In this document: in pieces, positions 2,287-57,610 of the stretch
Layout: each line of letters begins with the position of its first letter
How positions within the stretch are numbered: position 1 is the first letter of the stretch
Assembly: GCA_000092065.1 (NCBI GenBank)
Contig: CP000599.1
Direction: 5' to 3' (one strand)
DNA: 64,000 bases
From: Ostreococcus lucimarinus
Taxonomy: Eukaryota
Program-made: the position numbers and the translations under genes
Notes under the pieces: generated by a model
Told to the model about the DNA's origin: nothing
What the model saw: only the letters and a program-made list of their open reading frames with translations
Database searches by the model: none

Positions 2287-2328
2287 GCCCTCGGCGGCAC
2301 CCGACGCCGCCACTCGACGACGCGCGCG

Positions 2329-33700: not shown

Positions 33701-34220
33701 ACGTAAGCCCAAAGTCACGACTTGGGACTCGGCGTTGAAGGACATCGCGCGCGACGCGTCGGACGACGAAGACGAAGACGACGAAGAAGCGTCCGCCGGA
33801 GCGCCGAAATCGAAACCGAGCGCGCGTTCAGCCAAGAACGACGACGACGACGACGACGCGAAATCGTCGTCATCATCATCCGCGACGAAACCCGTCTTTA
33901 CCGCCACCATCGCCGTCAAATCCTACGACGTCTCCAAAAAAGACATGAAACTCCTCCGCGGAGCCTTTCTCAGCCTCTTGCGCGCCAAGGCGCCCGGCGC
34001 GTGCGACGACGCCGAACTCACCCTCACCAAACGCGTCGTCTACGACGGCTCCGTAAAAGTCGACGTTCGGTGCGCCAACGTACCGTCCGTCGACCACCTC
34101 ACCGAGGCCAACGACGCGATGAATTGGGCCTTCGTCGCCAGTCGTAAATTCCCCGACAACTTGGTCAAAATCGGTTTTCGCTCCGCGAGCGCCGACGACG
34201 TCACGTTGGATAGTCACTGA
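30783..34220 (+). CDS. Large hypothetical protein (1145 aa): N-terminal TM anchor, His-run, long coiled-coil regions, conserved-looking C-terminal domain
   Basis: ATG start; TM segment FLTSAMLCVGAVSVCIVSVMIAGGLAFVGL; HHLHKHHHHH; K/E/A-rich coiled coils. The central ~1 kb has lower GC. The antisense S/A-rich ORF 32192..33919 was rejected. Confidence 0.5.
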   Translation: MFARAQSHPKSHRAPAARDAEKRETTRAEGATRDVEASARAARDDRGRRRRDDAMGERRATTSYGAWGGDVEDVGARDSRRGGGWRETRTRASEGGGRDQFLTSAMLCVGAVSVCIVSVMIAGGLAFVGLSENHAERGMDFVRNGNDAWTTSGGYGAGGDGGSTLYASRGGANARGRFDYFAQPDRIDQDRLVDELDRRYGARLQAMMRELRGETTDGFSTLTMTRGEDPSYLPPAPMTEQEREMNEAAEQLRRLPNERLPSVDDDGDADTTTTTGQSHHLHKHHHHHRSSVLATEEAEYEKLKLPAHVVVKARERFEQFENTQEWHAKIRQDADKYVERLEEIYGLIKKSKHHGAKSEIKLGVEAVRQWHATIARDLKTKLAVMEVGLEKIADAKSRDPETHVSALSEDINDELQALTTTMDRVDNLRDVLGKLLRVLTEEDEDVAGAGTAEDLASAEPSYDLAATAPSHEEVMKKWNNVAKEWVKPNGELNTGRDSGVAHVSARNRSGDEKFDDALDESDDAAQVPDWVSKTRANVEKVTTGAISDAVSAKDAPGGDAPWVHSRARLGSSMEFSAPAHLGVNVLPSDTLADVLTQIVDLVLNVTEALDGTRFDFNGTRLNITVDVNETAAETALGPDAAALGEMLQSEVADAVTAQLRDKRLAYEASLGEKPTTTKTPTRFAALGSSWGSNEWTGTDAADASWDPIRGEDDGVYVDDASTRLDWTIPPGGDSRLSSSQPNGDGEDEELAPTPTPADEHFQSKSKKKIVEEFAKAEHKSAEAWRQEALKAQQKLEEVAAKGMENDADLQKSAGAVEKLKGLVKEFKKALLKESTARAKAERLLEEETTRAAEEQEDTEKRVVEQAKLQILAARTEARDASLARIKAEEEAEKAIKEKIALAKAAAKVQRSADEALRSVLADKEDAVAQKKSKIEETAPRPDGTVDAVSDDVLDAATEAAHVDTDATITPPAKRKPKVTTWDSALKDIARDASDDEDEDDEEASAGAPKSKPSARSAKNDDDDDDAKSSSSSSATKPVFTATIAVKSYDVSKKDMKLLRGAFLSLLRAKAPGACDDAELTLTKRVVYDGSVKVDVRCANVPSVDHLTEANDAMNWAFVASRKFPDNLVKIGFRSASADDVTLDSH

Positions 34221-45308: not shown

Positions 45309-47375
45309 ATGTCGCGCGACGCGCTCGGAGAACGCTCGACGCGGACGTTGACGGCGTACGGACGTCCGTCGACGTCGCCGCTGGCGGAGAGCGCGAGAGA
45401 ACTGGCGAGGACGACGATGGCGGGACGACTTCGGGACGCGGCGACGACGACGCGACGAGGACGGCGAGACGACGAGGGCGAGGACGAGTACGAGAGCGCG
45501 ACGACGACGAGCGAGACGACGAGCGCGACGGCGAGTTTGATTGGGTCGTCGGTGATCGAATTCGGGCGCGAGCGGGAGGGCGCGAGGAGACTGCGGGGGA
45601 GGGATCGGTTCGGAACGGCGGCGCGGCGCGAACGATTCGAAGAGTCGAAGCGAACGGCGAAGACGCGAGGGACGTTTGACGTGGCGGAGAACGCGAGATT
45701 GGCGCTCGAGGCGAAGGAGGCGCAGTTGCAGAAGATGGCGGCGCGATTGCGAGCGTTGGAGCGCGAGCGGGAGCGGGAGCGCGGGCGTGAGATGGACGAG
45801 GAGCGGGAGACGTTTGCCGACGCGGCGAACGATTTAGAGGGGGAGATGGCGGCGGCGATGGCGAGGTTACGAGGCGACGCTGGCGGCGCGACGACGTCGC
45901 GTCAGCAGACGACGAAGTCGTCGCGCGCGCGCGAGGACGCGGGCACGTTTGCGTTCGCCCCGGATGCTTTCGCGAGTCGCGACGGCGACGACCCCGCGAC
46001 GCCCGAGCTGCCGCGCGGGCGAGGCAAAGCGGAGGAACACGGCGATGACGTCGAGATGACGAAGACGCCGGAGATAAAGCCGATGCACCCACCGCGCGCG
46101 CCACCGTCAGAGCGCTCGGACGCCGAGATTTCGGAGTCGAAGACGCCTGAACCGATCAAACCAGGCGTACGCGTGGACGGCGGATACCTCACGCCGAGCG
46201 GTCGAGTCGTCGGGAGCGCGTTGAAATCGGGTTCGTCGAAGCCGAAGACGCCGAACGAATCCAAGTCCGTCGTATTCACACCCGGAGAGATCGCGCAGTA
46301 CTCGGACGCGGGAACGCCGTTCGACGCGGCCGATGTAGAAGAGTTGCGCGCCGAGCTCCGCGAAGTCAGGGCGGCGCTCAAGAGCGCGTTCAGCGTGAGT
46401 GAAAAACTCGTCGCGCAGTGCGAAAAGAAGAATAGGGAGATCAAGGAAAAGAATACGAGCGTCATGCTCGCGCGCGAGGAGCTGGAGAACGCGCGCGCAG
46501 CGCTCGAGCGAGCGCAAAAAGAAGCGCTAGAGGCGAAGAAGTCCGTCGCCGGCGTCCCGGCGGGCGATCTCGCCGAGGCGTACGAAAAGAGCAAACGTTT
46601 GAATAGCGAACTCTTGCGCGTGATGCGCGCGTCGATCGGGGTGAATGTCGAATTAAGTCCGGACGTTGTGTTCGCAATTCTACCCACGCTCGCGAGCTTA
46701 GCCGTGCGGGGAGACGTCGCCGAGGCCATGGCGCAGGGCGGCGCCTTGGACGCCCTCGCGGGAGCGTTGGATTTGTTCGCGCACGACCCCGCGGTTTGTC
46801 GCAAAGCCATCGCCGCGATCGAATCTATTTGTCGCGCCGGATCTCCCGACGCTAGCGGGGCGACTCAAGACGAAGAGATCATCGCCATTCGCTCGAGATT
46901 GACGAACGAAGCCGTGGACGCGTGCGGCGCCGCCGTGGCGCGATGCGCGTACGATCACGTCGCCGACGCGCGATTGAGCGAAGCCATTTGCGCGCTCGCG
47001 CACGCGTTCGCCGAGATCGGCGATTATGATCGCGTTCAGTTCTTGATTGGACGTGAATGCGCGCTGGTGCAAGCGATTTGCAAGATCTCTAAGACGCACG
47101 AGCACGACGAGCGAACGCAGCGCGCGTCTTCGTTGGCGCTCGCCGCGTTCGCCGCGTGCGACGAGAACACCAAGCGCGTCGTCGAAAGTCTCGGTGGCAT
47201 CGCGCTCATCAAGCGGTGCGTGCAGGAACTCGGAATAGATGACGCGCAGCGCGCGTTTCCGCACGTCAAGCGATGGATTTCCGGGAAGAAGACGCGCGAG
47301 GACAGAGAACGCGGCGCCCGCGGTTTCGACTCGGACGACGGCGAAGCCGACGTCGACGTCACGGGAAATCTATGA
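45309..47375 (+). CDS. Hypothetical protein: acidic/coiled-coil N-half and armadillo-like helical-repeat C-half (688 aa)
   Basis: ATG start. ERERERG coiled coil. The C-terminal ~250 aa are ARM/HEAT-like repeats (...GGALDALAGALDLFAHDPAVCRKAIAAIESICRAG...). Confidence 0.5.
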   Translation: MSRDALGERSTRTLTAYGRPSTSPLAESARELARTTMAGRLRDAATTTRRGRRDDEGEDEYESATTTSETTSATASLIGSSVIEFGREREGARRLRGRDRFGTAARRERFEESKRTAKTRGTFDVAENARLALEAKEAQLQKMAARLRALERERERERGREMDEERETFADAANDLEGEMAAAMARLRGDAGGATTSRQQTTKSSRAREDAGTFAFAPDAFASRDGDDPATPELPRGRGKAEEHGDDVEMTKTPEIKPMHPPRAPPSERSDAEISESKTPEPIKPGVRVDGGYLTPSGRVVGSALKSGSSKPKTPNESKSVVFTPGEIAQYSDAGTPFDAADVEELRAELREVRAALKSAFSVSEKLVAQCEKKNREIKEKNTSVMLAREELENARAALERAQKEALEAKKSVAGVPAGDLAEAYEKSKRLNSELLRVMRASIGVNVELSPDVVFAILPTLASLAVRGDVAEAMAQGGALDALAGALDLFAHDPAVCRKAIAAIESICRAGSPDASGATQDEEIIAIRSRLTNEAVDACGAAVARCAYDHVADARLSEAICALAHAFAEIGDYDRVQFLIGRECALVQAICKISKTHEHDERTQRASSLALAAFAACDENTKRVVESLGGIALIKRCVQELGIDDAQRAFPHVKRWISGKKTREDRERGARGFDSDDGEADVDVTGNL

Positions 47376-47459: not shown

Positions 47460-48602
47460 CTAACTCGACGCGTCGTCCGAACGTTTCTCTCGCGCGCCGA
47501 TGAACGCCGACATTTCCACCGCCGCCGTTCGAGTCGGCGACGCGTACGCGTCGTCGTCGTCGTCGTCGTCGTCGTCCATCGTCGCGCGCGTGAGCACGAC
47601 GAACCCATCGCCCGCGGCTCGAGCCCCGCCCTCGTCGTCGCCCTCGTCGTCGTCGCTCGCGAAATCGACGTCGTCCGCGAGATCTCCCAACCCCGTCTGC
47701 GCGTCCTCCGCGCCGACCCCCCGCGCTCGCGCCGAGAGCCGCGCGCACCCGAACGCCGTCGCCAACTCCACCGCCATCTCCCCTCGCGCCGGGTGCGCCA
47801 ACACGAACACGATCGCGTGCACCGCCCCCTGCGACGTCTTACACGCGACGTGCGCGCACGCGAGCCACAGCGCCGGCTTCGCTCGCCCCGCCAGCGTCGA
47901 CGCCCGCAGCGCCGTCCCCGGCACGTTCGTCACCACCTGCGCGATCGGGTACCACGCCAACCGTCGCACGTACGTCCGCAATCGCGCGTGCGCTCGCCGC
48001 GCCGTCGCGTCGTCGCGCCCCAACGTCGCCTCGAGCGCCGCCGCGCTCGCCATCCCGCGACGAATCGCGCGCCAGCAGCGCGCGTTGTAACAAAACGCCG
48101 CCCAAATCGGGACGTAATAAAAAACCAACCGGATTGTCGCCGCGCGCCTCCCCTCCGATTTCACGTGACACCGCCCCAGCCTCGAATCGCCGTACGCGTT
48201 CGCGAGCATCGGCGCGAGCGCCGACGCCGCGCACGCCGTCCACGCGAATCCGTCCTCGCGTCGCGCGTCGCCCCTCGCGCGTCCCGCGCGCAGGCTCTCC
48301 ATCAGCGCCCGCGACACGAGCGCCGCCCACACCGCGCCGGCGACGCCGAACGTCTGTATCAACGCGCCCTGCAAAGCGCAGATCGCGCCGCCGCGCGCGC
48401 CGCGATCGCCGAGCGCGCACGCCGTCGAAAACATCAAATCGCTCAGCGCCAATCGTTTCACGTACGCGTACGTCCTGCCGCGCGTACTGCGCGTCGCGAT
48501 CGCGCCCGCGAGGAGCACGAACGACGCGCCGGCGATCGACGCCGCTGAAGCGACGCGGTTCGTCGCGCGCACGATCGCGCGTTCGTCGGGCGTCCACGAC
48601 AT
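47460..48602 (-). CDS. Seven-transmembrane receptor-like protein (possible GPCR, cAMP-receptor/GCR1-like), 381 aa, acidic C-tail
   Basis: Start ATG 48602 (MSWTPDERAIV...). 6-7 hydrophobic helices. The long poly-D C-terminal tail is cytosolic-like. The rest of the track ORF up to 49727 is antisense of the USP gene and was rejected. Confidence 0.4.
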   Translation of the reverse strand: MSWTPDERAIVRATNRVASAASIAGASFVLLAGAIATRSTRGRTYAYVKRLALSDLMFSTACALGDRGARGGAICALQGALIQTFGVAGAVWAALVSRALMESLRAGRARGDARREDGFAWTACAASALAPMLANAYGDSRLGRCHVKSEGRRAATIRLVFYYVPIWAAFCYNARCWRAIRRGMASAAALEATLGRDDATARRAHARLRTYVRRLAWYPIAQVVTNVPGTALRASTLAGRAKPALWLACAHVACKTSQGAVHAIVFVLAHPARGEMAVELATAFGCARLSARARGVGAEDAQTGLGDLADDVDFASDDDEGDDEGGARAAGDGFVVLTRATMDDDDDDDDDAYASPTRTAAVEMSAFIGAREKRSDDASS

Positions 48603-48825
48603 TGTGGATTGAAAATTCGCGATCCGATGATTCGCGTCGCGATCGCGCGGCGTTCGGTTCGACGCGCGTCTCGATCGTCTCGGAACGTGTTCGCGATCGT
48701 TTACGACGCGTCGACGCGTCGACGCGCGGCGCGCGCGCGGCGCGATCGCGCGATTCGACGCGGGGGCGATCGATCGACGGCGGTGATTCGCGGACGCGAA
48801 CGCGAACCGTCGCGATCGGACACTC

Positions 48826-48905
48826 GGGTATAGGTATTGTGTTTCATATGATAAATATAATGTATAGAACGTGATAGTAATAAAAGGTAGTCGTATATAT
48901 AGGAT
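48826..48905. promoter_or_regulatory. AT-rich island with TATA boxes (GATAAATATAATG; CGTATATATAGG) ~55 bp upstream of the USP ATG
   Basis: The only strongly AT-rich stretch in the 355-bp divergent 7TM/USP promoter. TATATATA at ~48893. Confidence 0.5.
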
Positions 48906-48956
48906 GCACGTCGTGCGCGACGGCCGGCCGCGACGGTTCGCGCGACACGACGACGC

Positions 48957-49767
48957 ATGGCGAACGCGACGGACGCGTCGGCGATCGTCGACGACCGCGC
49001 GACGACGGCCGACGACGACGACGACGTGACGAGCTCGATGCGCGCGCTGCGCGTCGGCGACGACGGCGAGGACGAGGACGCGCCTCGACGCGCGCGAACG
49101 ATACTGTGCCCGGTGACGGAGCGCGACGACGACGCGAACGCGGTGAAGTGGGCGCGCGATAATCTCGTCGACGCGAAGCGCGGCGATTGCGTGCACTTGC
49201 TTCACATTCTGCCGCGGCGAACGGAGGCGGTGGCGGGGTACGCGTACCCGATGATGGGGGCGCCGACGCGGCGAGGTGGGCGCGTCTCGTCTCGCGCGCG
49301 CGCTCTCGTCTCGCGCGCGCGCTCTCGTCCCGGCGGCGGCGGCGAAGGCGCGAGACGACTGACGGTTCGGTTCGCGAACGCGAGCGCGCGCAGCGTGCGA
49401 AGAGCTCGAAGACGCCGAGCGCGAGCGCAAGCGATTGGATCGCGTCAGGGCGAAACACTGGATCAACGCAAAGTTTGGACGAATGTTGCGCGAGAGCGAG
49501 ACGCCGTACCTCGTCGATTTGACGTGCGGATCGCAGGGGAACGTGGCCGTCGGCGAACTCATCACGGCCGTCGCGGAGGCGATCGACGCGGACGTGATCG
49601 TGATGGCGACGCACAATCGAGGCGCGCTCGCTCGATTCTTCGTCGGATCGGTGGCGAATTTTTGTTTGCGAAACGCCACGATGCCCGTCGTGCTGTTACG
49701 TCCGGGCGAGTACGCGCTCGATCGCAAGCGCAGTCATCACCGCGTGTTGATCGACAGACACGATTAG
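48957..49767 (+). CDS. Universal stress protein (UspA family); 2 exons: 48957..49275 and 49394..49767
   Basis: Exon 1 is ...RTILCPVTERDDDANAVKWARDNLVDAKRGDCVHLLHILP... Exon 2 is ...GNVAVGELITAVAEAIDADVIVMATHNRGALARFFVGSVANFCLRNATMPVVLLRP (USP C-terminal ATP-binding motif). The frames differ. A GTGGGC donor at 49276, the branch motif CGACTGACGG and the acceptor CGCGCAG| at 49392/49393 join them. The 118-nt intron contains a 24-bp tandem duplicate. Exon 2 in the track starts on TTG. Confidence 0.65.
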
Positions 49768-49833: not shown

Positions 49834-50920
49834 TCACGTGAGATCGTCCTCCTCGGCTTCCACGGCGGCGACGATGCGCTTCTTAGCCTTTAATAGCATC
49901 GTCGTCTTCCAACCGTCGAGCCTGGACATGGAGTCGAATTCCGCCACCGCGCTCGAAAACGCGTCTTGATCGCCCGCCTCGAACGCCTTGGCGCAATTCA
50001 CCAACAAATCGCGCTCGCGCGACGACGCGAACGCCGGGTCGCTCTCCTCGTATCGCTCGCACGCGTTCAGCACCCCGACGGCGTCGTTCCAGCACAATCG
50101 ACAGATCCCCGCCTGTAAAAAGTACCCCTTCACCGAGAACCGCAGTAAATTGTTATTCAACGACGCGCGTCCGACGTCCTCAAAAATCTCCGTCGCCTCT
50201 TCGAATCGATCGAGCTTGCTCGCCAGCAGCGTCGCCGCCTTCAGTTTACAATTATTCCCCGTCGTCCGTCCCGAGTCGCCCTCGCCGTCGTACAGATCCG
50301 CCGCGCTCGAGAACGCCTCCACCGCGCGTTCATCCCCCTCCGCCGTCCCCAGGCTCTCGTACGTCTCGCCGATCTCCTTCAAATGTTTCGCCGCCTGCGC
50401 CAGTCGTCCCAATCGCGCGTACGCGTTCGACGCTTCCCTGTAGTGTCCGATCGCCTCCTCGTTCGCCCCGCACTTCTTCAGCATCTGCGCGCAGTCCACG
50501 TGCGCCGACGCCGCGTCGTGCGTCTCCTTCGTCGTCGCTCTGCACGTCGCCAGCGCCTCGTACGCGTCCGCCGCTCTTCGCCAGCTCTTCGCCAGCTTAA
50601 ACGACGTCGCCGCGCGCTCGTACAGCTCCGCCGCCTCCTCGTGCCTGTTCGCGCCCGTGATCGCGCTGAAGAATCCAACGCTCTGTCGTCGTCGTTCAGT
50701 CGGTCGCGCCGTCGTCAGTCGTCCTTCGTTCCTTCGTTCGTTCGTTCGTTCGTTCGCATTCATTCATTCATTCATTCGCGTCGATCGTTCGCGTCGAGCG
50801 CGCGCGTTCGCGCCGCTCGAGCGCGTCCGATCGCGCGCTCGCGCGCGCGCGTCGCACCCTGAGTTTCTTGGCCGCCGCGGCGCAGAGCGCGTCGCCGCGC
50901 GCGAGATCGTCGTCGCCCAT
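49834..50920 (-). CDS. NAPA: Alpha-soluble NSF attachment protein (alpha-SNAP); 2 exons: 50858..50920 and 49834..50682
   Basis: Exon 2 aligns with alpha-SNAP from ...SVGFFSAITGANRHEEAAELYERAATSFKLAKSW... onward. Exon 1 is MGDDDLARGDALCAAAAKKLR, followed by a GTGCGA donor at 50857. Metazoan alpha-SNAP has MADNMSKAEDLMKKAEKKLSGWGLFG at this position. The 175-nt intron contains (CATT)5(CGTT)4 and the branch motif GACTGACG. The acceptor ..CGACAG| is at 50683/50684. Confidence 0.8.
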
Positions 50921-50985: not shown

Positions 50986-51771
50986 ATGCGCGCCGCGACG
51001 CGCGTCGCGACGTCGCGCCCCGTCCCTCGCGCGTCGCGCTCGAGCGCGTCGCGCGTCGCGGCGACGCGAAGATTCGACGCGCGACCGAGCGACGACGTCG
51101 ATTCGGCGCAAAGATTCGACGCGCGTATGGCGCTCGTGGCGCTCGCGACGGTCGCGGCGACGCGATGCGAACTTCTAAAGCCGCCGGCGTGCGAGGCGGC
51201 GTTCATGGAGGCGGTCGAGGGGTCGGCGTCGGTGGTGACGCCGGCGGCGCCGTCGAGGCTGAAGCCGCGCGCGCGCGACGTCGTGCTGGAATCGAAATCC
51301 GAACACGCGGGCGAGGATCTGCGGCGAGAGGACCTGCGAGGGGCGATCTACGCCGAGGCGGATTTGCGACGGAGCGATCTGCGGGAGAGCGACGCGCGAG
51401 GGGCGGTGTTCAGTCGAGCGGTGATGCCGGGGGTGGACGCGCGAGACGCCGATTTTTCAGACGCGATGTTCGATTACGCGCTGCTGCGAGGGAGCGATTT
51501 CACGAATAGCGTGTTCGTGGGGGCGAATTTCGTGCGGGCGGATCTGGGGGAGGTGGTGGCGACGAACGCGGACTTCACGGAGGCGGTGATCGATCGGTAT
51601 CAGACGCTGTCGCTGTGCGAACGGGCGTCGGGGACGAATCCGTACACGGGGGCGAACACGCGGGATTCGTTGCTGTGCGACTTGGTGAAGCCGTACGCGG
51701 GCTCGGGCGAGGGAGGGAAGGTGGTGGCGACGAAGACGTCGGGGACGTGGGGTGGGGGGGGGCGCGAGTGA
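50986..51771 (+). CDS. Pentapeptide-repeat protein with bipartite chloroplast/thylakoid-lumen targeting sequence (TL15/TL17-like)
   Basis: N-terminus has an S/R-rich transit peptide followed by a hydrophobic MALVALATVAATR lumenal signal. Tandem pentapeptide repeats follow (EDLRREDLRGAIYAEADLRRSDLRESDARGAVFSRAV...). Its ATG is only 65 bp from the divergent alpha-SNAP ATG. Confidence 0.75.
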   Translation: MRAATRVATSRPVPRASRSSASRVAATRRFDARPSDDVDSAQRFDARMALVALATVAATRCELLKPPACEAAFMEAVEGSASVVTPAAPSRLKPRARDVVLESKSEHAGEDLRREDLRGAIYAEADLRRSDLRESDARGAVFSRAVMPGVDARDADFSDAMFDYALLRGSDFTNSVFVGANFVRADLGEVVATNADFTEAVIDRYQTLSLCERASGTNPYTGANTRDSLLCDLVKPYAGSGEGGKVVATKTSGTWGGGGRE

Positions 51772-51851: not shown

Positions 51852-54800
51852 CTACAGCGTCACGTGCGCGACGCGCTGCGGGAAGCGATACACCGTTCCG
51901 TCGCCGCTCAGACAGCTCGCCAAGTACGCCCCCAAAGACGCCGAACTCGACATCATGGTGTCTAAACTCAACGCGTCGTCCATGGCGACGCCGTGCAAGT
52001 AAGGCTCCAAGTTTTCGACGGCGACGGCGGTGACGTGAGACTTCACCTCGACGTTGTACGACGCGCCGAGCGCGCTCAGCGCGTCGCAAATTTGTTCGGC
52101 GCACGTCAAGAAGACGTCGTCGGCGGGCGCGGTGTCGTGGGACCGTCGTTCACCGCGGCGTTTCTTCTCGGCGTGGTACATGGCGAAAAATTTGGCGTCG
52201 TGACTTTGTTCCGTCGCCGCGGCGATGAACCCCAAACCGCCGGGTCGAAGCGACTTGCGGAAATTTCGCAGCGCGGAGTGTAATTTCCCGCGAGGCGTCG
52301 TCGCGAATCCGTGCGCGGTGTACACGATGTCGTAGCCGATCGAAGGGTCAGCGGCACCGCCGCCGTCGCGAGTGTCGTCCTGCGTCAGCGCGTCCGCGTA
52401 ATCCTGCGGAGGCACGAACGTCGTCGTCGATCCGCGATGGAGCGTGCCGACTCTAAACGGCGGCACGAGCGACGTCGCCGCCGTGTGCAACGCCACCGCG
52501 GAGACATCCAGTAGATCGACGCTGACGTATAAGCGTTCCATCGCGGGATCGATCAACGGTGACATCATCGCCTCGCGCGTGGCGTCCGCGATATGGCGGC
52601 ACAACGCCGCAGAAAACGTGCCGACGCCGCACGCCATTTCGAGCGCCGTGAGCGCGTCGGATGGGATCGACTGACGCACCGTCGTGTTGGCGTACACTGA
52701 AGACGTCACGGATGCCACGTCGCTCGCGTCGACGTCACTTTCGCCGCGCGCCCAAGCTTTCTCAATATCGCCGTCCTCCCCGTCGTCGACGTGTTCGCGG
52801 ATGCGTTCGCGCTGAAGCGACGCGAACGTCTTCCACCAGTCGTGCGATTCAGTGATGGATTGCACGTCTGAAAACGTCGCCATGCAATACCCGGGCGTAC
52901 GACGAAGTCGCTCGTGTTTTGCGGTGTCGTGCTCTTGCTCCAACATTTCGGCGATGCGTTCGGGCGCGTTCGACCCGTCGTCCACGGACGTCGCCGTGGT
53001 GGCGGTGACGTCGCCGCCGTAGTCGCTGTAAAATTCGTCGTCGACGATGGATTGAATGTCGGATTCATCGTCGTTTTCGAACCCGTCGTCTTCGGAATCC
53101 GATAATAACGGACGTCGCTCGATTATCGTCTCTTCTTCGTCGTACGCTTTTGCACGAAGGGGTGTCGGTGTCGCGCGCGCGCCGCTCGAAACGTTCGGAG
53201 ACGTAGACGTCTTCGGAGCCGCGCGATCCACCGCACGAGATATCCGAGCGCACTCCCCAGCGCTCACGACGCCCACGTTTTCCATCCAACCGGCGCGCAA
53301 CAACGCGCGATACGTCAATGTTTTCACAAAGTCTTGCAGCGCGAACGAGCACAAGGCGAAGACAAACACAAACGCGATGCGCGCCCACGAAATCGACGCC
53401 AACGCCATGAAGGGCCAATTCGCGCTCAACAAGCAACTCATCGTCAATGACGTGGCGAACGCAGCCAAAACTAGCCCCCCTGGGCGTCGCTCGAGGAACG
53501 ACTTGTGCGCACGAGCGCTGAAAACCGTCATCGCGTCCGTGAGCGTGAGCTTGAGAAACACACAGGTTTGCACCTCGCCGTACGGTAATCGAGCGCTCAG
53601 CGCCACGCGCAGTAACGCCAGAGTCGTGAAACACGCCGTGAAGCCGCTCGCCGCGCTGACGAAGACGTGCGGAAGTAAATTCCAACGCTCTGGTAAACGG
53701 CTCGGTGAGGTGTGGTCGTACGCGGTGCCGATGACGACAACGTCATTGAGCGCGGCGTTGACGCACAACGCGATGACTGGGAGCGTAAACGTATCCGGCG
53801 CGGAGACGTCGAAAGATTTTGGACTCACCACGAGGGCGCCAAATACAAAAAATCCCAAGACGTGCGCCGTGCACGTCGCACGAAATACAATGTATTCACG
53901 CACGCGCGCGAACATCACTCGGGCAGAGAGAACCGCGTGCGCCAAGGCTGCGAGCGACGGCGCGGCTAATATGATGTCGGACGCGCATCGCGCGGCGTCG
54001 CTAGCGTTATTCATCGACACTCCCACATGTGCGAGCTGAAGCGCCGCGCTATCGCTCGCGCCATCACTCACTAAACCGACGATGTCACCCTTAGCGCGAT
54101 GGGCCTTCACCAGCGCGTGCTTGTCCTCGGGTAGCATTTCGGCGTAAGCCTTCATGCGATCGAGCTTGTCGCAGTGCGCCGGGCTCAGCACGCTCGCGCG
54201 AAGAGGCACGTACGGTACATCGCTCGGAGTGTGGATGATTCCGTCAGAATTCTCGCTCAGATCGAAACCAATCTTATCGCACGCCACGCGCGCGACCCGA
54301 GCGACATCACTAGTGACGATTTTTACGTCGACGCCGAGCGATTGCATCGCGTGCAGCATCTCGTGCGCGTCCTTGCGACGCACGTCGTCGTACATAATCA
54401 AACCCAGACCGACGTACGAATCGTCGTGGGTTTTCGAACAAGCCACCAAGAGTGCGCGAGAAATCACTCCCGCCGCCGCGCGAGATTGCAACTGCTCGAG
54501 CGCGTCGTCGACGATGGCTTGCGCGCTCTCGCGGTTGACACACTTTTCTAGCGCGACGTCGATCGGGCCCTTCATCACGCGAAACGTCGATCCGTCGTTC
54601 GCTCGACGGATGATGCTTTCACTGAATTTTCTCTTTGCCGAGACATCGAAAGGTCGATGCTCTACGAGTTCGAACTTCCCTTCCAAGTGTCGCGCGACGT
54701 CAAAGGCGTCTAAAATCATCGCGTCCACGGCGTTTGTCGGCGGCTCCTTCCATCGCGTTCCCATCGCCGCCGCCGTCATGACGTCGTTTTCGCTGACACC

Positions 54801-56228
54801 CTCGAGTAAAGGCACCGTGGGAACGATCGAGCTCAGTTTTGCGGCATCTTTAGTCAACGTTCCGGTTTTATCGACGCACAAGACGTTCATGAGAGCCAAA
54901 TCTTCGATGACGCGCGCGCGCGCGACGATGCACGATTTTTTCGCCAACGCGCGAACGCCCAAAGAGGTCGTCGTGTGCACGATCGTTCGAATCGCCAAAG
55001 GTGTGCTGATGATCAAAAGAATGACCGCAAACGATAGCGAGCGGAAGAAGTCCTTCCCCCCCACGATGAGGTACAAGAATACGCTCAGCGAGGACGCGCA
55101 TCCGACCACCGCGAACGAGCGCGTGACGATGGACACGTTCGCGTCGAACGCGGACATTTCCTTGCGAGATGAATCTCTGGCTCGCATCACGCGCGCCGCG
55201 CGCCCAGCGAATGTGTGTTTTCCGGTGCGCACCACCATCGCTCTCGCGGAGCCGCGCTTGACGACGCCTCGCGTGAACAACGGTTCGCCCTTCGCGACGT
55301 CGACGGTGTGCCTGTCGCCCGTGATCAAAGAATTATCCAAAACCAACGTCTGCGGTCCGCACGACACGCAATCCGCGGGCACCGCACACCCGGGCGTGAG
55401 CGTGACGATGTCTCCCGGCACGAGAAAACGCGCGTCGACGACGCGCGACGTCCCCGATCTCGTCACCGTCGCTCGAGCGTCCACGAGCTCCGCCAACTCC
55501 CGACTCGCCCGCACCGCGTCCTCCCTCTCGACGTGCGACACCCACGCGTTACCGAAAACCAACCCCAACAAAATCATCGCGTTGAACGTCGGATCGTCGT
55601 GCACGCGCGCGTTAAAACTCTGCGCCAATTCCAACGCCGCCCCCGTCGCCAACACCCGCGCCGTCGGATTCCTAATCTCCGCGCGCAGAAACCGCGCGAA
55701 CCGCGCGCGCGCGCGTCCCGCGTCCCCCCCCCCCGCGCTCGCCTTCCGCGCCCGCGCGCCGTCGTCCCCATCCTCGCCCGTCGCCCAATCGTTCGCGCCG
55801 TACTTTTCCAACCGCCGCGCCGCCTCGCGTTCTCGCAAGCCGCCGTCGACGTCCGCGTCCAAATCCTCCTCGTCCACCGCCGTCTCCTGCACCCCGTGGT
55901 CTCGCGCGCGCGACATCTCGTCCATCATTTTCCGCGCGTCCATCGCCGCCGCCGTCGTCGCGCTCGAGTCGTTCGCGCGCGCGCGTCGTCCGTCGTCGCC
56001 GTCGTCGCCCGCGGCGCCGTCGTCGCCCGCGGCGCCGAGCGCGCGCACCCATCGTTCAATCTTTTTCGTCACCGGCGCCTCGTCGCGCGCCGTCGCGCGT
56101 CCCAGATCATCGCTCAGCATGCGTTCGTAATCGTCGCCGATCGGTGACGTCGGGTCGTCGTCGCGCGCGTCGCGCGTCGTCGAATTCGTCGCCGCGTCGT
56201 CGCAATCATCGCGTTCGCGTCGTCGCAT
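51852..56228 (-). CDS. Divergent P-type ATPase (type III/PMA-like core with DKTGTLT) fused to a C-terminal class-I SAM-dependent methyltransferase domain; single ORF ~1458 aa
   Basis: ATPase: ...GLREREAARRLEKYGAN..., ...LITGDRHTV (TGES-like), ...ISTPLAIRTIV... (TM4), NVLCVDKTGTLTKD (phosphorylation site), ...VSDGASDSAAL (degenerate GDGxND), ~10 TM helices. The ~150-aa protein-like linker has no stop. MTase: motif I LEMACGVGTFSAAL, post-I VSVDLLD, motif II YDIVYTAHGF, motif III LRPGGLGFI. The track ORF starts on GTG at 56498; the first ATG is at 56228. Confidence 0.7.
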   Translation of the reverse strand: MRRRERDDCDDAATNSTTRDARDDDPTSPIGDDYERMLSDDLGRATARDEAPVTKKIERWVRALGAAGDDGAAGDDGDDGRRARANDSSATTAAAMDARKMMDEMSRARDHGVQETAVDEEDLDADVDGGLREREAARRLEKYGANDWATGEDGDDGARARKASAGGGDAGRARARFARFLRAEIRNPTARVLATGAALELAQSFNARVHDDPTFNAMILLGLVFGNAWVSHVEREDAVRASRELAELVDARATVTRSGTSRVVDARFLVPGDIVTLTPGCAVPADCVSCGPQTLVLDNSLITGDRHTVDVAKGEPLFTRGVVKRGSARAMVVRTGKHTFAGRAARVMRARDSSRKEMSAFDANVSIVTRSFAVVGCASSLSVFLYLIVGGKDFFRSLSFAVILLIISTPLAIRTIVHTTTSLGVRALAKKSCIVARARVIEDLALMNVLCVDKTGTLTKDAAKLSSIVPTVPLLEGVSENDVMTAAAMGTRWKEPPTNAVDAMILDAFDVARHLEGKFELVEHRPFDVSAKRKFSESIIRRANDGSTFRVMKGPIDVALEKCVNRESAQAIVDDALEQLQSRAAAGVISRALLVACSKTHDDSYVGLGLIMYDDVRRKDAHEMLHAMQSLGVDVKIVTSDVARVARVACDKIGFDLSENSDGIIHTPSDVPYVPLRASVLSPAHCDKLDRMKAYAEMLPEDKHALVKAHRAKGDIVGLVSDGASDSAALQLAHVGVSMNNASDAARCASDIILAAPSLAALAHAVLSARVMFARVREYIVFRATCTAHVLGFFVFGALVVSPKSFDVSAPDTFTLPVIALCVNAALNDVVVIGTAYDHTSPSRLPERWNLLPHVFVSAASGFTACFTTLALLRVALSARLPYGEVQTCVFLKLTLTDAMTVFSARAHKSFLERRPGGLVLAAFATSLTMSCLLSANWPFMALASISWARIAFVFVFALCSFALQDFVKTLTYRALLRAGWMENVGVVSAGECARISRAVDRAAPKTSTSPNVSSGARATPTPLRAKAYDEEETIIERRPLLSDSEDDGFENDDESDIQSIVDDEFYSDYGGDVTATTATSVDDGSNAPERIAEMLEQEHDTAKHERLRRTPGYCMATFSDVQSITESHDWWKTFASLQRERIREHVDDGEDGDIEKAWARGESDVDASDVASVTSSVYANTTVRQSIPSDALTALEMACGVGTFSAALCRHIADATREAMMSPLIDPAMERLYVSVDLLDVSAVALHTAATSLVPPFRVGTLHRGSTTTFVPPQDYADALTQDDTRDGGGAADPSIGYDIVYTAHGFATTPRGKLHSALRNFRKSLRPGGLGFIAAATEQSHDAKFFAMYHAEKKRRGERRSHDTAPADDVFLTCAEQICDALSALGASYNVEVKSHVTAVAVENLEPYLHGVAMDDALSLDTMMSSSASLGAYLASCLSGDGTVYRFPQRVAHVTL

Positions 56229-56404
56229 TTCGTCGTCTCGCGTCGTCGCGACGCGGTTCGAGACGCCCGCGCGCGAGTATTTTTCGCGTGCGATCGCGTT
56301 CGACGCGATTCGCGATCGCGATTCGCGATCGCGCAAAGCGCGGCGTCGCGAGCCGTCGCGCTCTGACGCGAATCGCGTCGCGTCGGGCCGTCGTGATGTA
56401 TCAT

Positions 56405-56412
56405 AAACCCTA
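56405..56412. promoter_or_regulatory. Exact telo-box AAACCCTA 116 bp upstream of the uL3 ATG
   Basis: tcatAAACCCTAtattt sits in the only AT-rich patch of the ATPase/uL3 divergent promoter. Confidence 0.5.
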
Positions 56413-56527
56413 TATTTACGTATTGTACACTTTTTAGTACTATGTAGATGTAGATTTTGGGTAAAACGAGCGCCCCGATCGCGCGCGCGCGTCCGCACAC
56501 GACGCCGAGACGCGCGCGCGCGCCGTC

Positions 56528-57610
56528 ATGCTTCGTCGCGCCTGCGCGCGCGCGGCGACGCGCGTCGCCGCGCTCGTCGCGCCGAGCCGCGCGATCGGCG
56601 CGCCGCTCGCGTCGCCGCGCGCGCGATTTCCGTCGCCGCCGCAACTCGTCGCGTCGGCGAATCATCGCCTCGCGAGCGCGCGCGCGGCGGCGCCTCGACC
56701 GTCGAGCGCGGGAATCGCGCGCGATCGACGCTCGGCGCGATCGAACGCGGTCGAGCGCGCGACGTACGCGACGTCGGCGCGCGCGGTGGACGCGGCGCAC
56801 CGAAGGGCGAACGCGACGCGCGCGGCGACGCGAGAGGCGCGCCGAAGGACCGGCGCGGTGGCGATCAAGACCGGGATGACGTGCGATTGGGACGCGCGAG
56901 GGACGAGGATCCCGCTCACGGTGCTGTGGATCGACGATTGCGAGGTGGTGGCGGCGAAGACGTCGAGCGGGGCGGACGGGTACGACGCGGTGCAGGTGGG
57001 ATACGGAAGCCGAAAGCCGAAGCAGGTGACCAAGGCGGAGCTGGGGTACTTTGTGCGAAGGAAAACGAACATTAAGAGAGCGCTGTGCGAGTTTCGGACG
57101 AGCGCGGACGGGGTGCTGGCGCCGGGGACGGCGATCACGGCGGCGCACTTCGCGGCGGGGCAGTACGTGGACGTGCAGGGCGTGACCAAGGGGAAAGGGT
57201 TTCAGGGACCGATGAAGCGGTGGGGGTTCTCGGGACAGCCCGCGAGTCACGGGAACACGAAGAAGCATCGCGCGCACGGGAGCATCGGGCAGTGCCAGGA
57301 CCCGGGGCGAGTTTTTAAGGGGAAGAAGATGGCGGGTCGGATGGGCGGCAGGACGCGCACGGTGCAGAGCGCGTACGTGTACAAGGTGGACACGGAGAAG
57401 AATTTGGTGTACGTCAAGGGACAAGTCCCGGGGAACGCCGGAATGGCGGTGAAGATCAGAGACAGCCTGCGGAAACCGCCGGCGCTGGACGGGAGCGAGG
57501 TGCCGTTTCCGACGGCGGTGGCTGGCGAGCACCCGACGGGGGTCTTCGTCGCGCCGCCGCAGGGCGCGGATCCGTTCGGTAACCCCGAACCGGTGAAGCA
57601 GCGCGCGTGA
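56528..57610 (+). CDS. RPL3: Organellar (bacterial-type) ribosomal protein uL3, nucleus-encoded with N-terminal targeting peptide
   Basis: ...GMTCDWDARGTRIPLTVLWIDDCEVVAAK...VQVGYG...GQYVDVQGVTKGKGFQGPMKRWGFSGQPASHGNTKKHRAHGSIGQCQDPGRVFKGKKMAGRMG... matches bacterial/mitochondrial/plastid uL3. Confidence 0.85.
   Translation: MLRRACARAATRVAALVAPSRAIGAPLASPRARFPSPPQLVASANHRLASARAAAPRPSSAGIARDRRSARSNAVERATYATSARAVDAAHRRANATRAATREARRRTGAVAIKTGMTCDWDARGTRIPLTVLWIDDCEVVAAKTSSGADGYDAVQVGYGSRKPKQVTKAELGYFVRRKTNIKRALCEFRTSADGVLAPGTAITAAHFAAGQYVDVQGVTKGKGFQGPMKRWGFSGQPASHGNTKKHRAHGSIGQCQDPGRVFKGKKMAGRMGGRTRTVQSAYVYKVDTEKNLVYVKGQVPGNAGMAVKIRDSLRKPPALDGSEVPFPTAVAGEHPTGVFVAPPQGADPFGNPEPVKQRA

What the first reader, a model, noticed from the sequence alone, without database searches (positions are those of the whole stretch)
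51852..56228. P-type ATPase fused in one ORF to a C-terminal SAM-dependent methyltransferase domain
A complete but divergent PMA-like P-type ATPase (DKTGTLT, TGDR for TGES, SDGASD for GDGVND, ~10 TMs) runs without a stop codon through a ~150-aa linker of ordinary protein-like composition. It ends in a domain with all class-I methyltransferase motifs (I LEMACGVGTFS, post-I VSVDLLD, II YDIVYTAHGF, III LRPGGLGFI). Plasma-membrane H+-ATPases normally end in an autoinhibitory R-domain, and a pump-methyltransferase fusion is not an architecture I know of. It could couple transport to methylation of a transported substrate or lipid. Alternatively the degenerate ATPase motifs could mean a non-pumping sensor.
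Basis: partly seen in the sequence, partly recalled or inferred. Interest (0 to 1): 0.7.

Follow-up and report, generated by a model that had tools for sequence, protein, structure and literature searches.

The report
Proton-pump-like ATPase fused to methyltransferase
A tiny marine green alga (Ostreococcus lucimarinus) makes one long membrane protein that joins a proton-pump-like ATPase to a small-molecule methyltransferase. The fusion is real, old and conserved, the pump half has lost its catalytic residues in several relatives, and the architecture has apparently never been described as such.

Summary
On the minus strand, 51852-56228 is one 1,458-codon ORF with three parts: a divergent P3A-type P-type ATPase (residues ~181-980), a fast-evolving acidic linker, and a complete class I SAM methyltransferase module (1095-1458).

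- **Organism:** the window is Ostreococcus lucimarinus CCE9901. NCBI's model there is a 723-aa partial that hides the fusion. The O. tauri orthologue is OtAHA1, flagged in 2012 as a "possible chimera".
- **Conservation:** the fusion is kept in frame in all Ostreococcus clades found and in at least four more divergent lineages. The ATPase halves form one clade, which implies a single origin.
- **Selection:** both halves are under purifying selection, but the linkers are not.
- **Methyltransferase:** it belongs to an uncharacterised bacterial family always found next to a PhyH dioxygenase, a second methyltransferase and a transporter. Its predicted fold is closest to histamine N-methyltransferase.
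- **Pump:** catalytic motifs range from fully canonical, through altered (here DKTGT intact, TGES→TGDR, GDGxND→SDGASD), to dead (ETTGT or lost).

Most likely this is a membrane-held small-molecule methyltransferase on a constrained pump-derived chassis. Substrate, pump activity and transcript structure remain untested.

The parts
51852..56228 (-). Complete CDS of the fusion protein (1,458 aa plus stop). It is the O. lucimarinus orthologue of O. tauri OtAHA1.
   Evidence: ORF list. The exact product is called as one gene on two independent Logan contigs. Residues 218-940 are 100% identical to XP_001422424.1. It aligns end to end at 56% identity with O. tauri XP_022840610.1.
55689..56228 (-). 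N-terminal region (residues 1-180). It is poorly conserved, charged and low in complexity, and ends in a Cation_ATPase_N-like helix (GLREREAARRLEKYGAN).
   Evidence: 26-34% identity to other clades. dN/dS is 0.43 against the 92%-identical orthologue. Weak PF00690 hit at 121-147.
53289..55688 (-). P3A-type P-type ATPase body (residues 181-980) with 10 TM helices and A, P and N domains.
   Evidence: PF00122 E=6e-42. TIGR01647 430 bits, TIGR01494 153 bits against a cut-off of 62. AHA2, Pma1 and Neurospora PMA are the best PDB matches, E=1e-74 to 1e-69. dN/dS 0.11.
55311..55322 (-). A-domain dephosphorylation loop, TGDR in place of TGES.
   Evidence: All other Ostreococcus clades have TGER, and the basal fusion lineage P0441/P0270 has TGES.
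54858..54872 (-). Phosphorylation motif DKTGT, intact here (D453).
   Evidence: The motif is DTTGT in P0004/P0006/P0016 and ETTGT in the P0019 cluster (9 cluster sequences read: P0019 and 8 of its 200 members, all ETTGT).
54051..54068 (-). P-domain Mg2+ site, SDGASD in place of GDGxND. Both Asp residues are kept here.
   Evidence: The first Asp is lost in P0006 (SGAASD) and P0019 (SAAASD).
54120..54122 (-). Motif-III lysine K703 (PEDK, equivalent to AHA2 PEHK), kept here.
   Evidence: It is Thr in the P0004/P0006/P0016/P0019 clade.
55548..55550 (-). N227 in M2, equivalent to AHA2 Asn106 (gate-keeper of the proton site).
   Evidence: Mapped through the 5KSD alignment. Invariant in the 16-sequence family alignment.
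53862..53864 (-). H789 in M5, at the position of AHA2 Arg655.
   Evidence: Invariant His in the Ostreococcus family. Pedersen 2012 noted that both O. tauri P3A pumps lack this Arg.
53742..53744 (-). D829 in M6, equivalent to AHA2 Asp684 (proton acceptor/donor).
   Evidence: Invariant in the family.
52947..53288 (-). Flexible linker after M10 (residues 981-1094), 23% Asp+Glu, fast-evolving but always in frame.
   Evidence: 25-40% identity between clades. dN/dS 0.32. Composition. Its length varies between clades without any frame break.
52794..52946 (-). N-terminal cap helices of the methyltransferase module (residues 1095-1145, ...RLRRTPGYCMATFSDVQSITESHDWW...).
   Evidence: dN/dS 0.05, the most constrained segment. 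Homologous to the N-terminus of the stand-alone bacterial enzymes (FYxxAxxDYxxLAxxxDW). Helical in the model.
52665..52793 (-). Acidic insert between the cap helices and strand beta-1 (residues 1146-1188).
   Evidence: 11-26% identity between clades. dN/dS 1.09. Absent from the bacterial homologues. pLDDT is 51-66 across this stretch, and below 50 for residues 90-97 of the model.
51855..52664 (-). Rossmann core plus C-terminal substrate-side subdomain of the class I SAM methyltransferase (residues 1189-1458). Includes motif I 52611-52643, post-I 52506-52526, motif II 52305-52334 and motif III 52224-52250.

Best explanation
**What it is.** One gene encodes one membrane protein. The body is a 10-helix ATPase derived from a plasma-membrane-type (P3A) proton pump. 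Its cytosolic C-terminus, where ordinary pumps carry an autoinhibitory tail, continues through a floppy acidic tether into a complete SAM-dependent methyltransferase of the small-molecule, histamine-N-methyltransferase-like kind.

**Shown.**
- The fusion arose once, is kept in frame in every lineage found, and both halves are under purifying selection.
- The methyltransferase motifs are kept in every fusion lineage examined.
- The pump's catalytic signatures range from canonical to destroyed between lineages.

**Inferred.**
- The methyltransferase is the constant enzymatic output. It works at the cytosolic face of the membrane on a small, probably amine-like or otherwise nucleophilic, metabolite.
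- The pump-derived body is more than a passive anchor, because its A, N and P domains stay constrained even where the phosphorylated Asp is replaced.
- Its conserved role is therefore structural or regulatory: positioning, oligomeric platform, or nucleotide/proton sensing. Bulk ATP-driven proton pumping is not the conserved role.
- In the O. lucimarinus protein, D453, K454, K703 and both Mg-site Asp residues remain. A slow or modified phosphorylation cycle is still possible. The TGES→TGDR, GDGxND→SDGASD and TGD→TSD changes argue against a normal high-turnover pump.
For: **One in-frame product.**
- establish a single uninterrupted ORF.
- 22 clusters of full-length relatives (1,413-1,581 aa, 54-99% identity, 92-100% coverage), standing for several hundred sequences, all have an uninterrupted frame.
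- The locus is syntenic (L3 - fusion - pentapeptide - SNAP) in other Ostreococcus clades.

**Selection.**
- dN/dS is 0.11 for the ATPase, 0.05 for the cap, 0.23 for the methyltransferase, and 0.32 and 1.09 for the linkers.
- Between clades the ATPase is 63-67% identical, the methyltransferase 64-70%, and the linkers 11-40%.

**Wider distribution and single origin.**
- More divergent fusions exist: P0270/P0441, P0459, P0260 and P0417.
- The ATPase domains of all full-length fusions included (P0417 omitted) form one clade (NJ bootstrap 92/100). The canonical-motif lineage is basal on a short branch, and a non-fused PMA is the sister.
- The methyltransferase tree has the same shape.

**Motif erosion.**
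- P0441: TGES, DKTGT, PEHK, GDGAND.
- Window: TGDR, DKTGT, PEDK, SDGASD.
- P0004 clade: DTTGT, PEDT.
- P0019 cluster (P0019 and 8 of its 200 members read): ETTGT, PEDT, SAAASD.
- P0459: DKAGT, GRGVAD. P0260 and P0417: signatures gone, and P0417 lacks the A domain and M1-4.
- P0019 nevertheless has 0 private changes at otherwise invariant positions in its A, N and P2 domains.

**Methyltransferase identity.**
- It aligns end to end with stand-alone bacterial 270-300-aa enzymes.
- Model pLDDT is 87.8. Best folds are HNMT, 4-vinylphenol MT, JHAMT, TmtA and SAMT, all small-molecule enzymes.
- In 4/4 bacterial loci the homologue sits in a block of transporter, PhyH dioxygenase, this methyltransferase and a second methyltransferase. 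That is a small-molecule context that includes a transporter.

**Precedent.** Alveolate guanylate-cyclase/P4-ATPase fusions show the same gradient from conserved to degenerate ATPase signatures (PMC6592433).
Against: - No transcript or protein evidence was obtained for the single product. The Logan contigs inspected are genomic.
- One MMETSP-derived 367-aa ORF labelled 'complete' starts inside the cap region. That could mean a separate 3' transcript or just a fragmentary assembly.
- In the window protein itself no catalytic residue is unambiguously knocked out, and dN/dS of the ATPase is as low as for a working enzyme. It may simply be an active, unusual pump.
- The substrate is unknown. Identity to HNMT is only 11-12%, and the bacterial homologues are only ~28% identical and themselves uncharacterised.
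- The long branches of the degenerate fusions could inflate their grouping in a distance tree.
- The taxonomy of the non-Ostreococcus fusion lineages was not established.
Confidence: 0.5

Rival explanations
1. It is a working proton pump, and the methyltransferase domain replaces the usual autoinhibitory R-domain. It would act as a SAM/SAH-sensing or docking regulator that tunes pumping to methylation or sulphur status.
For: - The C-terminus is where P3A pumps carry their regulatory domain. Chlorophyte pumps lack the plant-type one (PMC3355532).
- DKTGT, K703, D722/D726, N227 and D829 are intact here.
- ATPase dN/dS is 0.11.
- The basal fusion lineage has a fully canonical pump.
Against: - Lineages with an impossible phosphorylation site (ETTGT) or no signatures at all keep an intact, conserved methyltransferase. 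The methyltransferase cannot exist only to regulate pumping.
- Family-wide conserved residues beyond the SAM site are shared with bacterial enzymes that sit in metabolic gene blocks: H1306, H1343, E1408, D1417 and aromatics. That points to retained catalysis.
Confidence: 0.2
2. Transport and methylation are coupled. The membrane body moves, or hands over, a small molecule that the tethered enzyme methylates on the cytosolic side. The molecule could also be a lipid head group.
For: - The bacterial homologues are always next to a transporter gene (MFS or amino-acid permease). This is a Rosetta-stone-type link between this methyltransferase family and membrane transport.
- The fusion is obligate in all algal lineages found.
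Against: - The membrane residues kept are those of the P3A proton site (N106, D684 equivalents). There is no sign of an enlarged substrate path as in P4 or P5 pumps.
- Lineages without a phosphorylation site could not drive transport.
Confidence: 0.1
3. The tethered enzyme is a protein methyltransferase that modifies the pump body itself or a neighbouring membrane protein.
For: - The best sequence-profile hit among solved structures is the N-terminal protein methyltransferase NTMT1 (E=1e-8).
- Tethering favours action in cis.
Against: - The NTMT1 match covers only motifs II-III (profile positions 92-172).
- Whole-domain fold matches are small-molecule enzymes.
- The bacterial homologues sit with a dioxygenase, a second methyltransferase and a transporter, not with a protein partner.
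Confidence: 0.1
4. It is not one protein. Two adjacent genes are read through by ORF finders, or an internal start gives an independent methyltransferase, so the 'fusion' is an annotation artefact.
For: - The O. tauri RCC1115 annotation splits the locus into OUS44909 (1,107 aa) and OUS44908 (215 aa).
- An MMETSP ORF of 367 aa is labelled 'complete'.
- NCBI's O. lucimarinus model stops at residue 940.
Against: - No stop codon ends the ATPase in any of the several hundred sequences behind 22 clusters, nor in four further lineages, despite linkers evolving almost neutrally and varying in length.
- P(no stop) in the 208 linker codons is 0.0015 for one genome alone.
- The RCC1115 split falls inside the methyltransferase module and leaves the 215-aa model without motif I.
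- The Met at the MMETSP start is not conserved: it is Thr or Ile in other clades.
Confidence: 0.05

Closest known systems
Ostreococcus tauri OtAHA1 (Ot20g00330; old model Q00RY3, 1,043 aa; current model XP_022840610.1 / CEG00832.1 / A0A096PA68, 1,494 aa)
   Same: Direct orthologue. It is 56% identical end to end, with the same ATPase - linker - methyltransferase order. It was described as the most divergent P3A ATPase analysed, lacking the M5 Arg (PMC3355532).
   Different: The 2012 catalogue saw only a truncated model and called it 'a possible chimera', so the methyltransferase was not recognised. O. tauri has TGER and TAD where the window has TGDR and TSD.
P3A plasma-membrane H+-ATPases (Arabidopsis AHA2, 5KSD; yeast Pma1, 7VH5; Neurospora PMA, 1MHS)
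   Same: Best solved relatives (E=1e-74 to 1e-69). The alignment covers all 10 TM helices. DKTGT and the proton-site residues Asn106 and Asp684 are conserved.
   Different: - Below the TIGR01647 cut-off (430 against 615 bits).
- TGES→TGDR, GDGxND→SDGASD, TGD→TSD, DPPR→DDVR, and Arg655→His.
- No R-domain. Instead there is a ~480-aa C-terminal extension ending in an enzyme.
Histamine N-methyltransferase and other capped small-molecule class I methyltransferases (HNMT 1JQD, 4VPMT2 8ZSA, JHAMT 7EC0, TmtA 5EGP, SAMT 1M6E)
   Different: - Only 10-16% identity, so no family-level sequence membership.
- Carries acidic inserts absent from all of them.
- Tethered to a membrane protein.
- Substrate unknown.
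Uncharacterised bacterial stand-alone methyltransferases (e.g. Mycobacterium yunnanensis P0396; Planctomycetota, Pseudomonadota and Pseudonocardiaceae MAGs)
   Same: True homologues over the whole module (25-33% identity, profile E down to 1e-111), including the N-terminal 'DW' helices and the C-terminal LExYLxxxxxDD...FPQ subdomain.
   Different: Soluble 270-300-aa proteins encoded in a block of transporter, PhyH dioxygenase, this methyltransferase and a second methyltransferase. They are never fused to an ATPase. One Myxococcales variant is fused to an EgtD-like histidine methyltransferase instead.
Alveolate guanylate cyclase / P4-ATPase fusions (TgATPaseP-GC, PfGCα, PfGCβ)
   Same: A P-type ATPase body fused to a C-terminal cytosolic enzyme. 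The ATPase signatures run from conserved (Toxoplasma) to degenerate (PfGCβ), and the ATPase part is thought to regulate the enzyme (PMC6592433).
   Different: Different pump subfamily (P4 lipid flippase against P3A), different enzyme (cyclase with its own TM helices against a soluble methyltransferase), and a different eukaryotic group. There is no homology between the fused enzymes.

Membership tests
P-type ATPase superfamily (HAD-IC) | Phosphorylated Asp in DKTGT | tested here: met
   DKTGT at residues 453-457, nt 54858-54872.
P-type ATPase superfamily (HAD-IC) | Curated profile scores above cut-off | tested here: met
   PF00122 scores 143.7 against 28.1. TIGR01494 scores 153.3 against 62.3. 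PF00702 is marginally below, 24.3 against 26.4.
P-type ATPase superfamily (HAD-IC) | A-domain TGES dephosphorylation loop | tested here: not met
   TGDR here, so Glu→Asp and Ser→Arg. Other Ostreococcus clades have TGER.
P-type ATPase superfamily (HAD-IC) | GDGxND, TGD and motif-III Lys in the P domain | tested here: inconclusive
   SDGASD keeps both Asp but has lost the Gly and the Asn. TSD replaces TGD. K703 is present. The effect on catalysis cannot be judged from sequence.
P3A plasma-membrane H+-ATPase | Equivalog-level profile score (TIGR01647) | tested here: not met
   429.7 bits against a cut-off of 615.5. It is still by far the best-scoring subfamily; the next scores 180.
P3A plasma-membrane H+-ATPase | Proton-site residues Asn106 (M2) and Asp684 (M6) | tested here: met
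   N227 and D829 by alignment to 5KSD. Both are invariant in the family.
P3A plasma-membrane H+-ATPase | Arg655 (M5) back-flow guard | tested here: not met
   His789, invariant in the family. The Arg is also absent from other chlorophyte P3A pumps (PMC3355532).
P3A plasma-membrane H+-ATPase | Ten transmembrane helices in the P3A arrangement | tested here: met
   The alignment to AHA2 covers residues 47-825. A hydropathy scan finds M3-M7, M9 and M10 above threshold, while M1, M2 and M8 are less hydrophobic.
P3A plasma-membrane H+-ATPase | C-terminal autoinhibitory R-domain | tested here: not met
   The C-terminal ~480 residues are a linker plus a methyltransferase.
P3A plasma-membrane H+-ATPase | ATP-driven H+ transport | not testable with these tools
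   Needs biochemistry or yeast pma1 complementation.
Class I (Rossmann-fold) SAM-dependent methyltransferase | Motifs I, post-I, II and III in order | tested here: met
   LEMACGVGTFS, VSVDLLD, YDIVYTAHGF and LRPGGLGFI. C1200, G1201, G1203 and F1205 are invariant, and D1241 is in 25/28, across algal and bacterial homologues.
Class I (Rossmann-fold) SAM-dependent methyltransferase | Pfam gathering score | tested here: inconclusive
   The window module is below cut-off (Methyltransf_12 21.6 against 30; Methyltransf_25 19.8 against 27). 8/8 relatives match these families at E<=1 (best E 9e-9), and P0270 passes the cut-off (36.3 against 27). The shortfall here is probably due to the acidic insert between strands.
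Class I (Rossmann-fold) SAM-dependent methyltransferase | Fold | tested here: met
Class I (Rossmann-fold) SAM-dependent methyltransferase | SAM binding and methyl transfer | not testable with these tools
   Needs recombinant protein.
Histamine N-methyltransferase family | Sequence-level membership and histamine-binding residues | tested here: not met
   11-12% identity in structural alignments. The profile-to-sequence E-value is only 0.002. This is a resemblance of fold and enzyme class, not membership.

The most novel reading that the evidence does not exclude
The family is a set of 'pseudo-pumps'. A proton-pump scaffold has been re-purposed, like the flippase half of alveolate guanylate cyclases, as a conformational or sensing platform. 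It would respond to nucleotide, proton or membrane potential and would gate or position a methyltransferase at the membrane. That enzyme would make a so far unidentified methylated small metabolite in some of the ocean's most abundant picoalgae. The lineages caught at different stages of catalytic loss (canonical → TGDR/SDGASD → DTTGT → ETTGT → no signatures or truncated) would then be a natural series showing how a primary transporter turns into an enzyme regulator.
Probability: 0.25. Interest if true: 0.8.

Novelty: new variant of a known kind. Interest (0 to 1): 0.62.

Why it matters
- **A new architecture for a well-studied family.** P-type ATPases are among the best-understood transporters, and enzyme-fused members are very rare. 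The alveolate guanylate-cyclase/flippase is the textbook case. This would be a second, independent example: a proton-pump type joined to a methyltransferase.
- **A natural gradient of catalytic decay.** Both halves stay under selection while the pump's catalytic signatures erode to different degrees between lineages. That makes it directly testable what a P-type ATPase body can do when it no longer pumps.
- **An unknown metabolic step in abundant algae.** Ostreococcus and its relatives are abundant marine primary producers, and the ETTGT form comes from Tara Oceans metagenomes. The methyltransferase belongs to an uncharacterised family whose bacterial members sit in a conserved dioxygenase / methyltransferase / transporter block, so an unknown methylated metabolite may be involved.
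- **Annotation errors that hide the protein.** The O. lucimarinus RefSeq model is a 723-aa fragment, and one O. tauri annotation splits the gene inside the methyltransferase.

Tried and rejected
- **Shallow-alignment structure.** A prediction of the C-terminal module from only the 8 Ostreococcus sequences gave a useless model (pLDDT 44). It was replaced by a 28-sequence alignment that includes bacterial homologues.
- **AlphaFold-database fold search.** The library was unavailable, so UniProt fusions in named organisms could not be listed that way.
- **C-terminus alone in the word-indexed protein search.** It found a single fragment. Full-length and profile searches were needed.
- **Sequence search of the shallow module profile against PDB.** Not significant.
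- **NCBIfam scan of the bacterial homologues.** It gave no named family.
- **Transcript evidence.**
  - The Logan contigs of ~5-6 kb that might have been transcripts carry neighbouring genes or have no poly(A), so they are genomic.
  - The MMETSP 'complete' 367-aa ORF cannot be interpreted without its nucleotide sequence.
- **Literature.** Searches for the fusion, for accession numbers and for locus tags found only Pedersen et al. 2012.
- **One bacterial context look-up (P0407).** It returned nothing.
- **First tree attempt.** It timed out and was redone with faster settings.
- **Gene-decay reading, considered and rejected.** The degenerate motifs do not reflect a decaying pseudogene: ATPase dN/dS is 0.11 and the dead-site clade shows no excess of private changes.
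- **Antisense ORFs, considered and rejected.** The long ORFs overlapping the gene (e.g. 54154-56130 +, 658 aa) are not genes. They are by-products of the high G+C content and have Arg/Ser/Ala-rich translations.

Full report
**1. The observation**

The feature lies on the minus strand. The stop-to-stop ORF spans 51852-56498. The first ATG is at 56228 and gives a 1,458-aa product that ends at the stop 51852-51854.

The ORF is not a by-product of G+C richness.
- From the local base composition, a stop is expected every ~33 codons.
- The probability of 1,458 open codons is about 2e-20.
- The probability for the 208 codons between the last membrane helix and the Rossmann core is about 0.0015.
- Third-position G+C is elevated in this frame in every segment, at 0.63-0.84.

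Two independent public assemblies call exactly this product as one gene.

**2. Organism and existing annotation**

Residues 218-940 are 100% identical to XP_001422424.1, 'P-ATPase family transporter: proton, partial' of Ostreococcus lucimarinus CCE9901. The neighbouring alpha-SNAP gene clusters with XP_001422423.1. The window is therefore O. lucimarinus, and its RefSeq model is a 723-aa fragment that hides both ends of the protein.

The O. tauri orthologue is annotated full-length (XP_022840610.1 / A0A096PA68, 1,494 aa, 'Cation-transporting P-type ATPase') and aligns end to end at 56% identity. Its older 1,043-aa model is OtAHA1 (Ot20g00330). Pedersen et al. [quoted passage not shown] Another O. 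tauri annotation splits the locus into 1,107-aa and 215-aa models. The cut falls inside the methyltransferase module, and the 215-aa piece lacks motif I, so the split is an artefact.

No paper in the searchable library describes the fusion.

**3. The ATPase half**

Pfam E1-E2_ATPase matches at E=6e-42. The P3A proton-pump model TIGR01647 is by far the best NCBIfam model (430 bits; the next scores 180) but falls below its 615-bit cut-off. The best solved relatives are AHA2, yeast Pma1 and Neurospora PMA (E=1e-74 to 1e-69), and the AHA2 alignment runs through M10.

Mapping through that alignment gives the following:

| Feature | State in the window protein |
|---|---|
| Proton site Asn106 / Asp684 | N227 / D829, invariant in the family |
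| Arg655 | invariant His789 |
| Phosphorylation motif | DKTGT intact |
| Motif-III Lys | K703 intact |
| Mg-site Asp residues | both intact |
| TGES | TGDR |
| GDGxND | SDGASD |
| TGD | TSD |
| DPPR | DDVR |
| KGAPE | KGPID |

Sequence alone cannot say whether this is a slow pump or no pump.

**4. The methyltransferase half**

On this sequence alone the Pfam methyltransferase hits are sub-threshold. The family-level evidence is clear:
- All 8 family members hit Methyltransf_25, _12 and _23, with best E=9e-9.
- An exhaustive profile search of 1.84 billion representatives found only 84 relatives.
- Among them are stand-alone ~270-300-aa proteins. These align with residues 1095-1458 from end to end, including the N-terminal helices (…DW…) and a C-terminal subdomain (LExYLxxxxxDD … FPQ).

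Residues conserved across algal and bacterial members beyond the SAM site include two His (H1306, H1343), acids (D1121, E1408, D1417) and aromatics (W1131, Y1410, Y1435, F1449). That pattern would suit a cationic or amine substrate, but this is inference only.

**5. What the bacterial relatives say**

The stand-alone homologues are bacterial: Mycobacterium yunnanensis, and Planctomycetota, Pseudomonadota and Pseudonocardiaceae MAGs. No NCBIfam family names them.

In four of four loci examined the gene sits in the same block: a transporter (MFS or amino-acid permease), a PhyH-family Fe/2OG dioxygenase, this methyltransferase, and a second class I methyltransferase. Further details:
- The dioxygenase is closest to MysH among solved structures (E=1.5e-10).
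- The second methyltransferase is closest to HNMT by sequence (E=1.6e-7).
- One locus has a bona fide EgtD 3 kb away (388 bits against a cut-off of 291).
- A Myxococcales protein fuses an EgtD-like domain to a member of this family.

This places the family in small-molecule metabolism linked to a transporter, possibly of histidine- or amine-type compounds. At ~28% identity the algal substrate cannot be transferred from this context.

**6. The fusion is conserved, under selection, and arose once**

A search with the whole protein returned 22 clusters of full-length relatives. They are 1,413-1,581 aa long, 54-99% identical and cover 92-100% of the query. Together they stand for several hundred sequences from ENA, JGI and Logan. 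The next best hit is a non-fused pump at 30% identity.

The locus is syntenic in other clades, with ribosomal protein L3, the fusion, a pentapeptide protein and SNAP in order.

| Segment | Identity between clades | dN/dS vs a 92%-identical orthologue |
|---|---|---|
| ATPase | 63-67% | 0.11 |
| Methyltransferase cap | 51-71% | 0.05 |
| Methyltransferase core | 64-70% | 0.23 |
| Linker after M10 | 25-40% | 0.32 |
| Acidic insert | 11-26% | 1.09 |

The linkers evolve almost freely and change length, yet never acquire a stop or frameshift. That argues that translation as one chain is itself selected.

Beyond Ostreococcus there are further fusion lineages below 50% identity: P0270/P0441 (1,211-1,346 aa), P0459 (1,792 aa), P0260 (1,561 aa) and P0257/P0417 (1,214-1,346 aa). 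Their taxonomy was not established.

In a distance tree of the ATPase domain, all the full-length fusions included (P0417 was left out) form one clade with bootstrap 92/100. P0441 is basal on a short branch, and a non-fused pump is the sister. The tree of the methyltransferase modules has the same shape, although support for a single eukaryotic split is only 49/100.

**7. The pump signatures erode**

The motif table shows a series:

| Lineage | State of the ATPase signatures |
|---|---|
| P0441/P0270 | all canonical: TGES, DKTGT, TGD, PEHK, GDGAND |
| Window and its sister | TGDR, DKTGT, PEDK, SDGASD |
| Most Ostreococcus clades | TGER, DKTGT |
| P0004/P0006/P0016 | DTTGT and PEDT (motif-III Lys lost) |
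| P0019 cluster (200 members; P0019 and 8 members read; representative contig from a Tara Oceans metagenome) | ETTGT, PEDT, SAAASD |
| P0459 | DKAGT, GRGVAD |
| P0260 | essentially no signature |
| P0417 | lacks M1-M4 and the A domain |

A Glu at the phosphorylation site is not expected to support the catalytic cycle. This rests on established knowledge of P-type ATPases, not on a test here.

The P0019 protein is nevertheless not decaying. It has no private substitutions at positions invariant in the other clades in its A, N and second P-domain segments, and its methyltransferase is intact.

**8. Interpretation**

The constant element is a methyltransferase held at the cytosolic face of a membrane by the C-terminal helices of a pump-derived body. 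The variable element is the pump's chemistry. I therefore read the methyltransferase as the conserved output, and the ATPase body as a constrained chassis whose conserved role is not bulk proton pumping.

That body remains under strong constraint even where the catalytic site is dead. A merely passive anchor is therefore unlikely, and a structural, oligomeric or sensing/regulatory role fits better.

For the O. lucimarinus protein specifically, a residual slow cycle cannot be excluded. The closest functional analogy is the alveolate guanylate-cyclase/P4-ATPase family, where ATPase signatures likewise range from conserved to degenerate (PMC6592433).

The rival readings are weighed in their own sections: a working pump with a regulatory methyltransferase, coupled transport and methylation, a protein methyltransferase, and two separate products.

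**9. Limits**

- No transcript, protein, localisation or activity data were available. The contigs examined are genomic.
- One MMETSP-derived 367-aa ORF labelled 'complete' begins inside the cap region. It may be an assembly fragment, and its Met is not conserved.
- The AlphaFold-database library was unavailable.
- The trees are simple distance trees.

**10. Verdict**

The finding is real and more interesting than a one-off. It is an old, conserved architecture that has apparently not been described as such, joining a P3A-type ATPase to a methyltransferase, and it comes with a natural series of pump inactivation. It is a new variant of a known kind (enzyme-fused P-type ATPases), and the gene itself is already in databases. 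The function of either half remains untested.

Noticed in passing
window 53409-55577 (-), within the CDS: The RefSeq model for this gene in O. lucimarinus CCE9901 (XP_001422424.1, 'partial', 723 aa) covers only residues 218-940. It omits the N-terminus, M10, the linker and the whole methyltransferase.
   Followed up: yes
O. tauri orthologue (P0223 / P0226 = OUS44909.1 / OUS44908.1): One O. tauri strain annotation splits the orthologue into a 1,107-aa 'E1-E2 ATPase' and a 215-aa 'methyltransferase domain' protein. The cut lies inside the methyltransferase module, after the cap helices and before motif I, and both models have non-homologous ends. It looks like a prediction artefact.
   Followed up: yes
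L005:1601-6346 (P0019; representative contig from a Tara Oceans metagenome) and 8 members of its 200-member cluster: This syntenic Ostreococcus-type orthologue has Glu in place of the phosphorylated Asp (ETTGT). It also has Thr for the motif-III Lys and SAAASD for GDGxND, yet shows no extra substitutions elsewhere in the A, N and P domains.
   Followed up: partly
L006:5041-9223, L007:3610-7915, L008:3497-7979, L009:3539-7981: There is a conserved bacterial gene block: a transporter (MFS or amino-acid permease), a PhyH-type Fe/2OG dioxygenase (closest solved relative MysH), this uncharacterised methyltransferase family, and a second HNMT-like methyltransferase. L007 also has a true EgtD at 2225-3244. 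The product of the block is unknown.
   Followed up: partly
P0292 (MCB9570126.1, Myxococcales MAG, 620 aa): This protein fuses an EgtD-like histidine N-alpha-methyltransferase domain (Methyltransf_33, E=2e-63) to a C-terminal domain related to the methyltransferase family studied here.
   Followed up: no
P0211 (MMETSP Transcript_6389, 367 aa): A transcriptome-derived ORF labelled 'complete' starts at a Met inside the cap region of an Ostreococcus-type orthologue. It is either a fragmentary assembly or a hint of a separate 3' transcript. The Met is not conserved between clades.
   Followed up: partly
window 50986-51771 (+), 56528-57610 (+), 49834-50763 (-): The immediate neighbours are a pentapeptide-repeat protein (convergent, only ~80 nt from the stop), a ribosomal protein L3 (divergent, ~300 nt from the ATG) and alpha-SNAP. 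This order is kept in other Ostreococcus clades (L003, L005, L010, L011).
   Followed up: yes
window 10049-12040 (-): A 663-aa ORF combines ankyrin repeats (113-205) with an acyl-transferase domain of the malonyl-CoA:ACP transacylase type (353-647). This is an unusual pairing.
   Followed up: no
window 38727-44276 (-), 30783-34220 (+), 45309-47375 (+), 47460-49727 (-): There are several very long ORFs (1,849, 1,145, 688 and 755 aa) with no Pfam domain, or only a SAP domain, at E<=1e-5.
   Followed up: no
window 54154-56130 (+), 53056-54039 (+), 56114-57532 (-): Long ORFs run antisense to or overlap the fusion gene and L3. They have Arg/Ser/Ala-rich translations typical of non-coding frames in G+C-rich DNA and are not genes.
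   Followed up: partly
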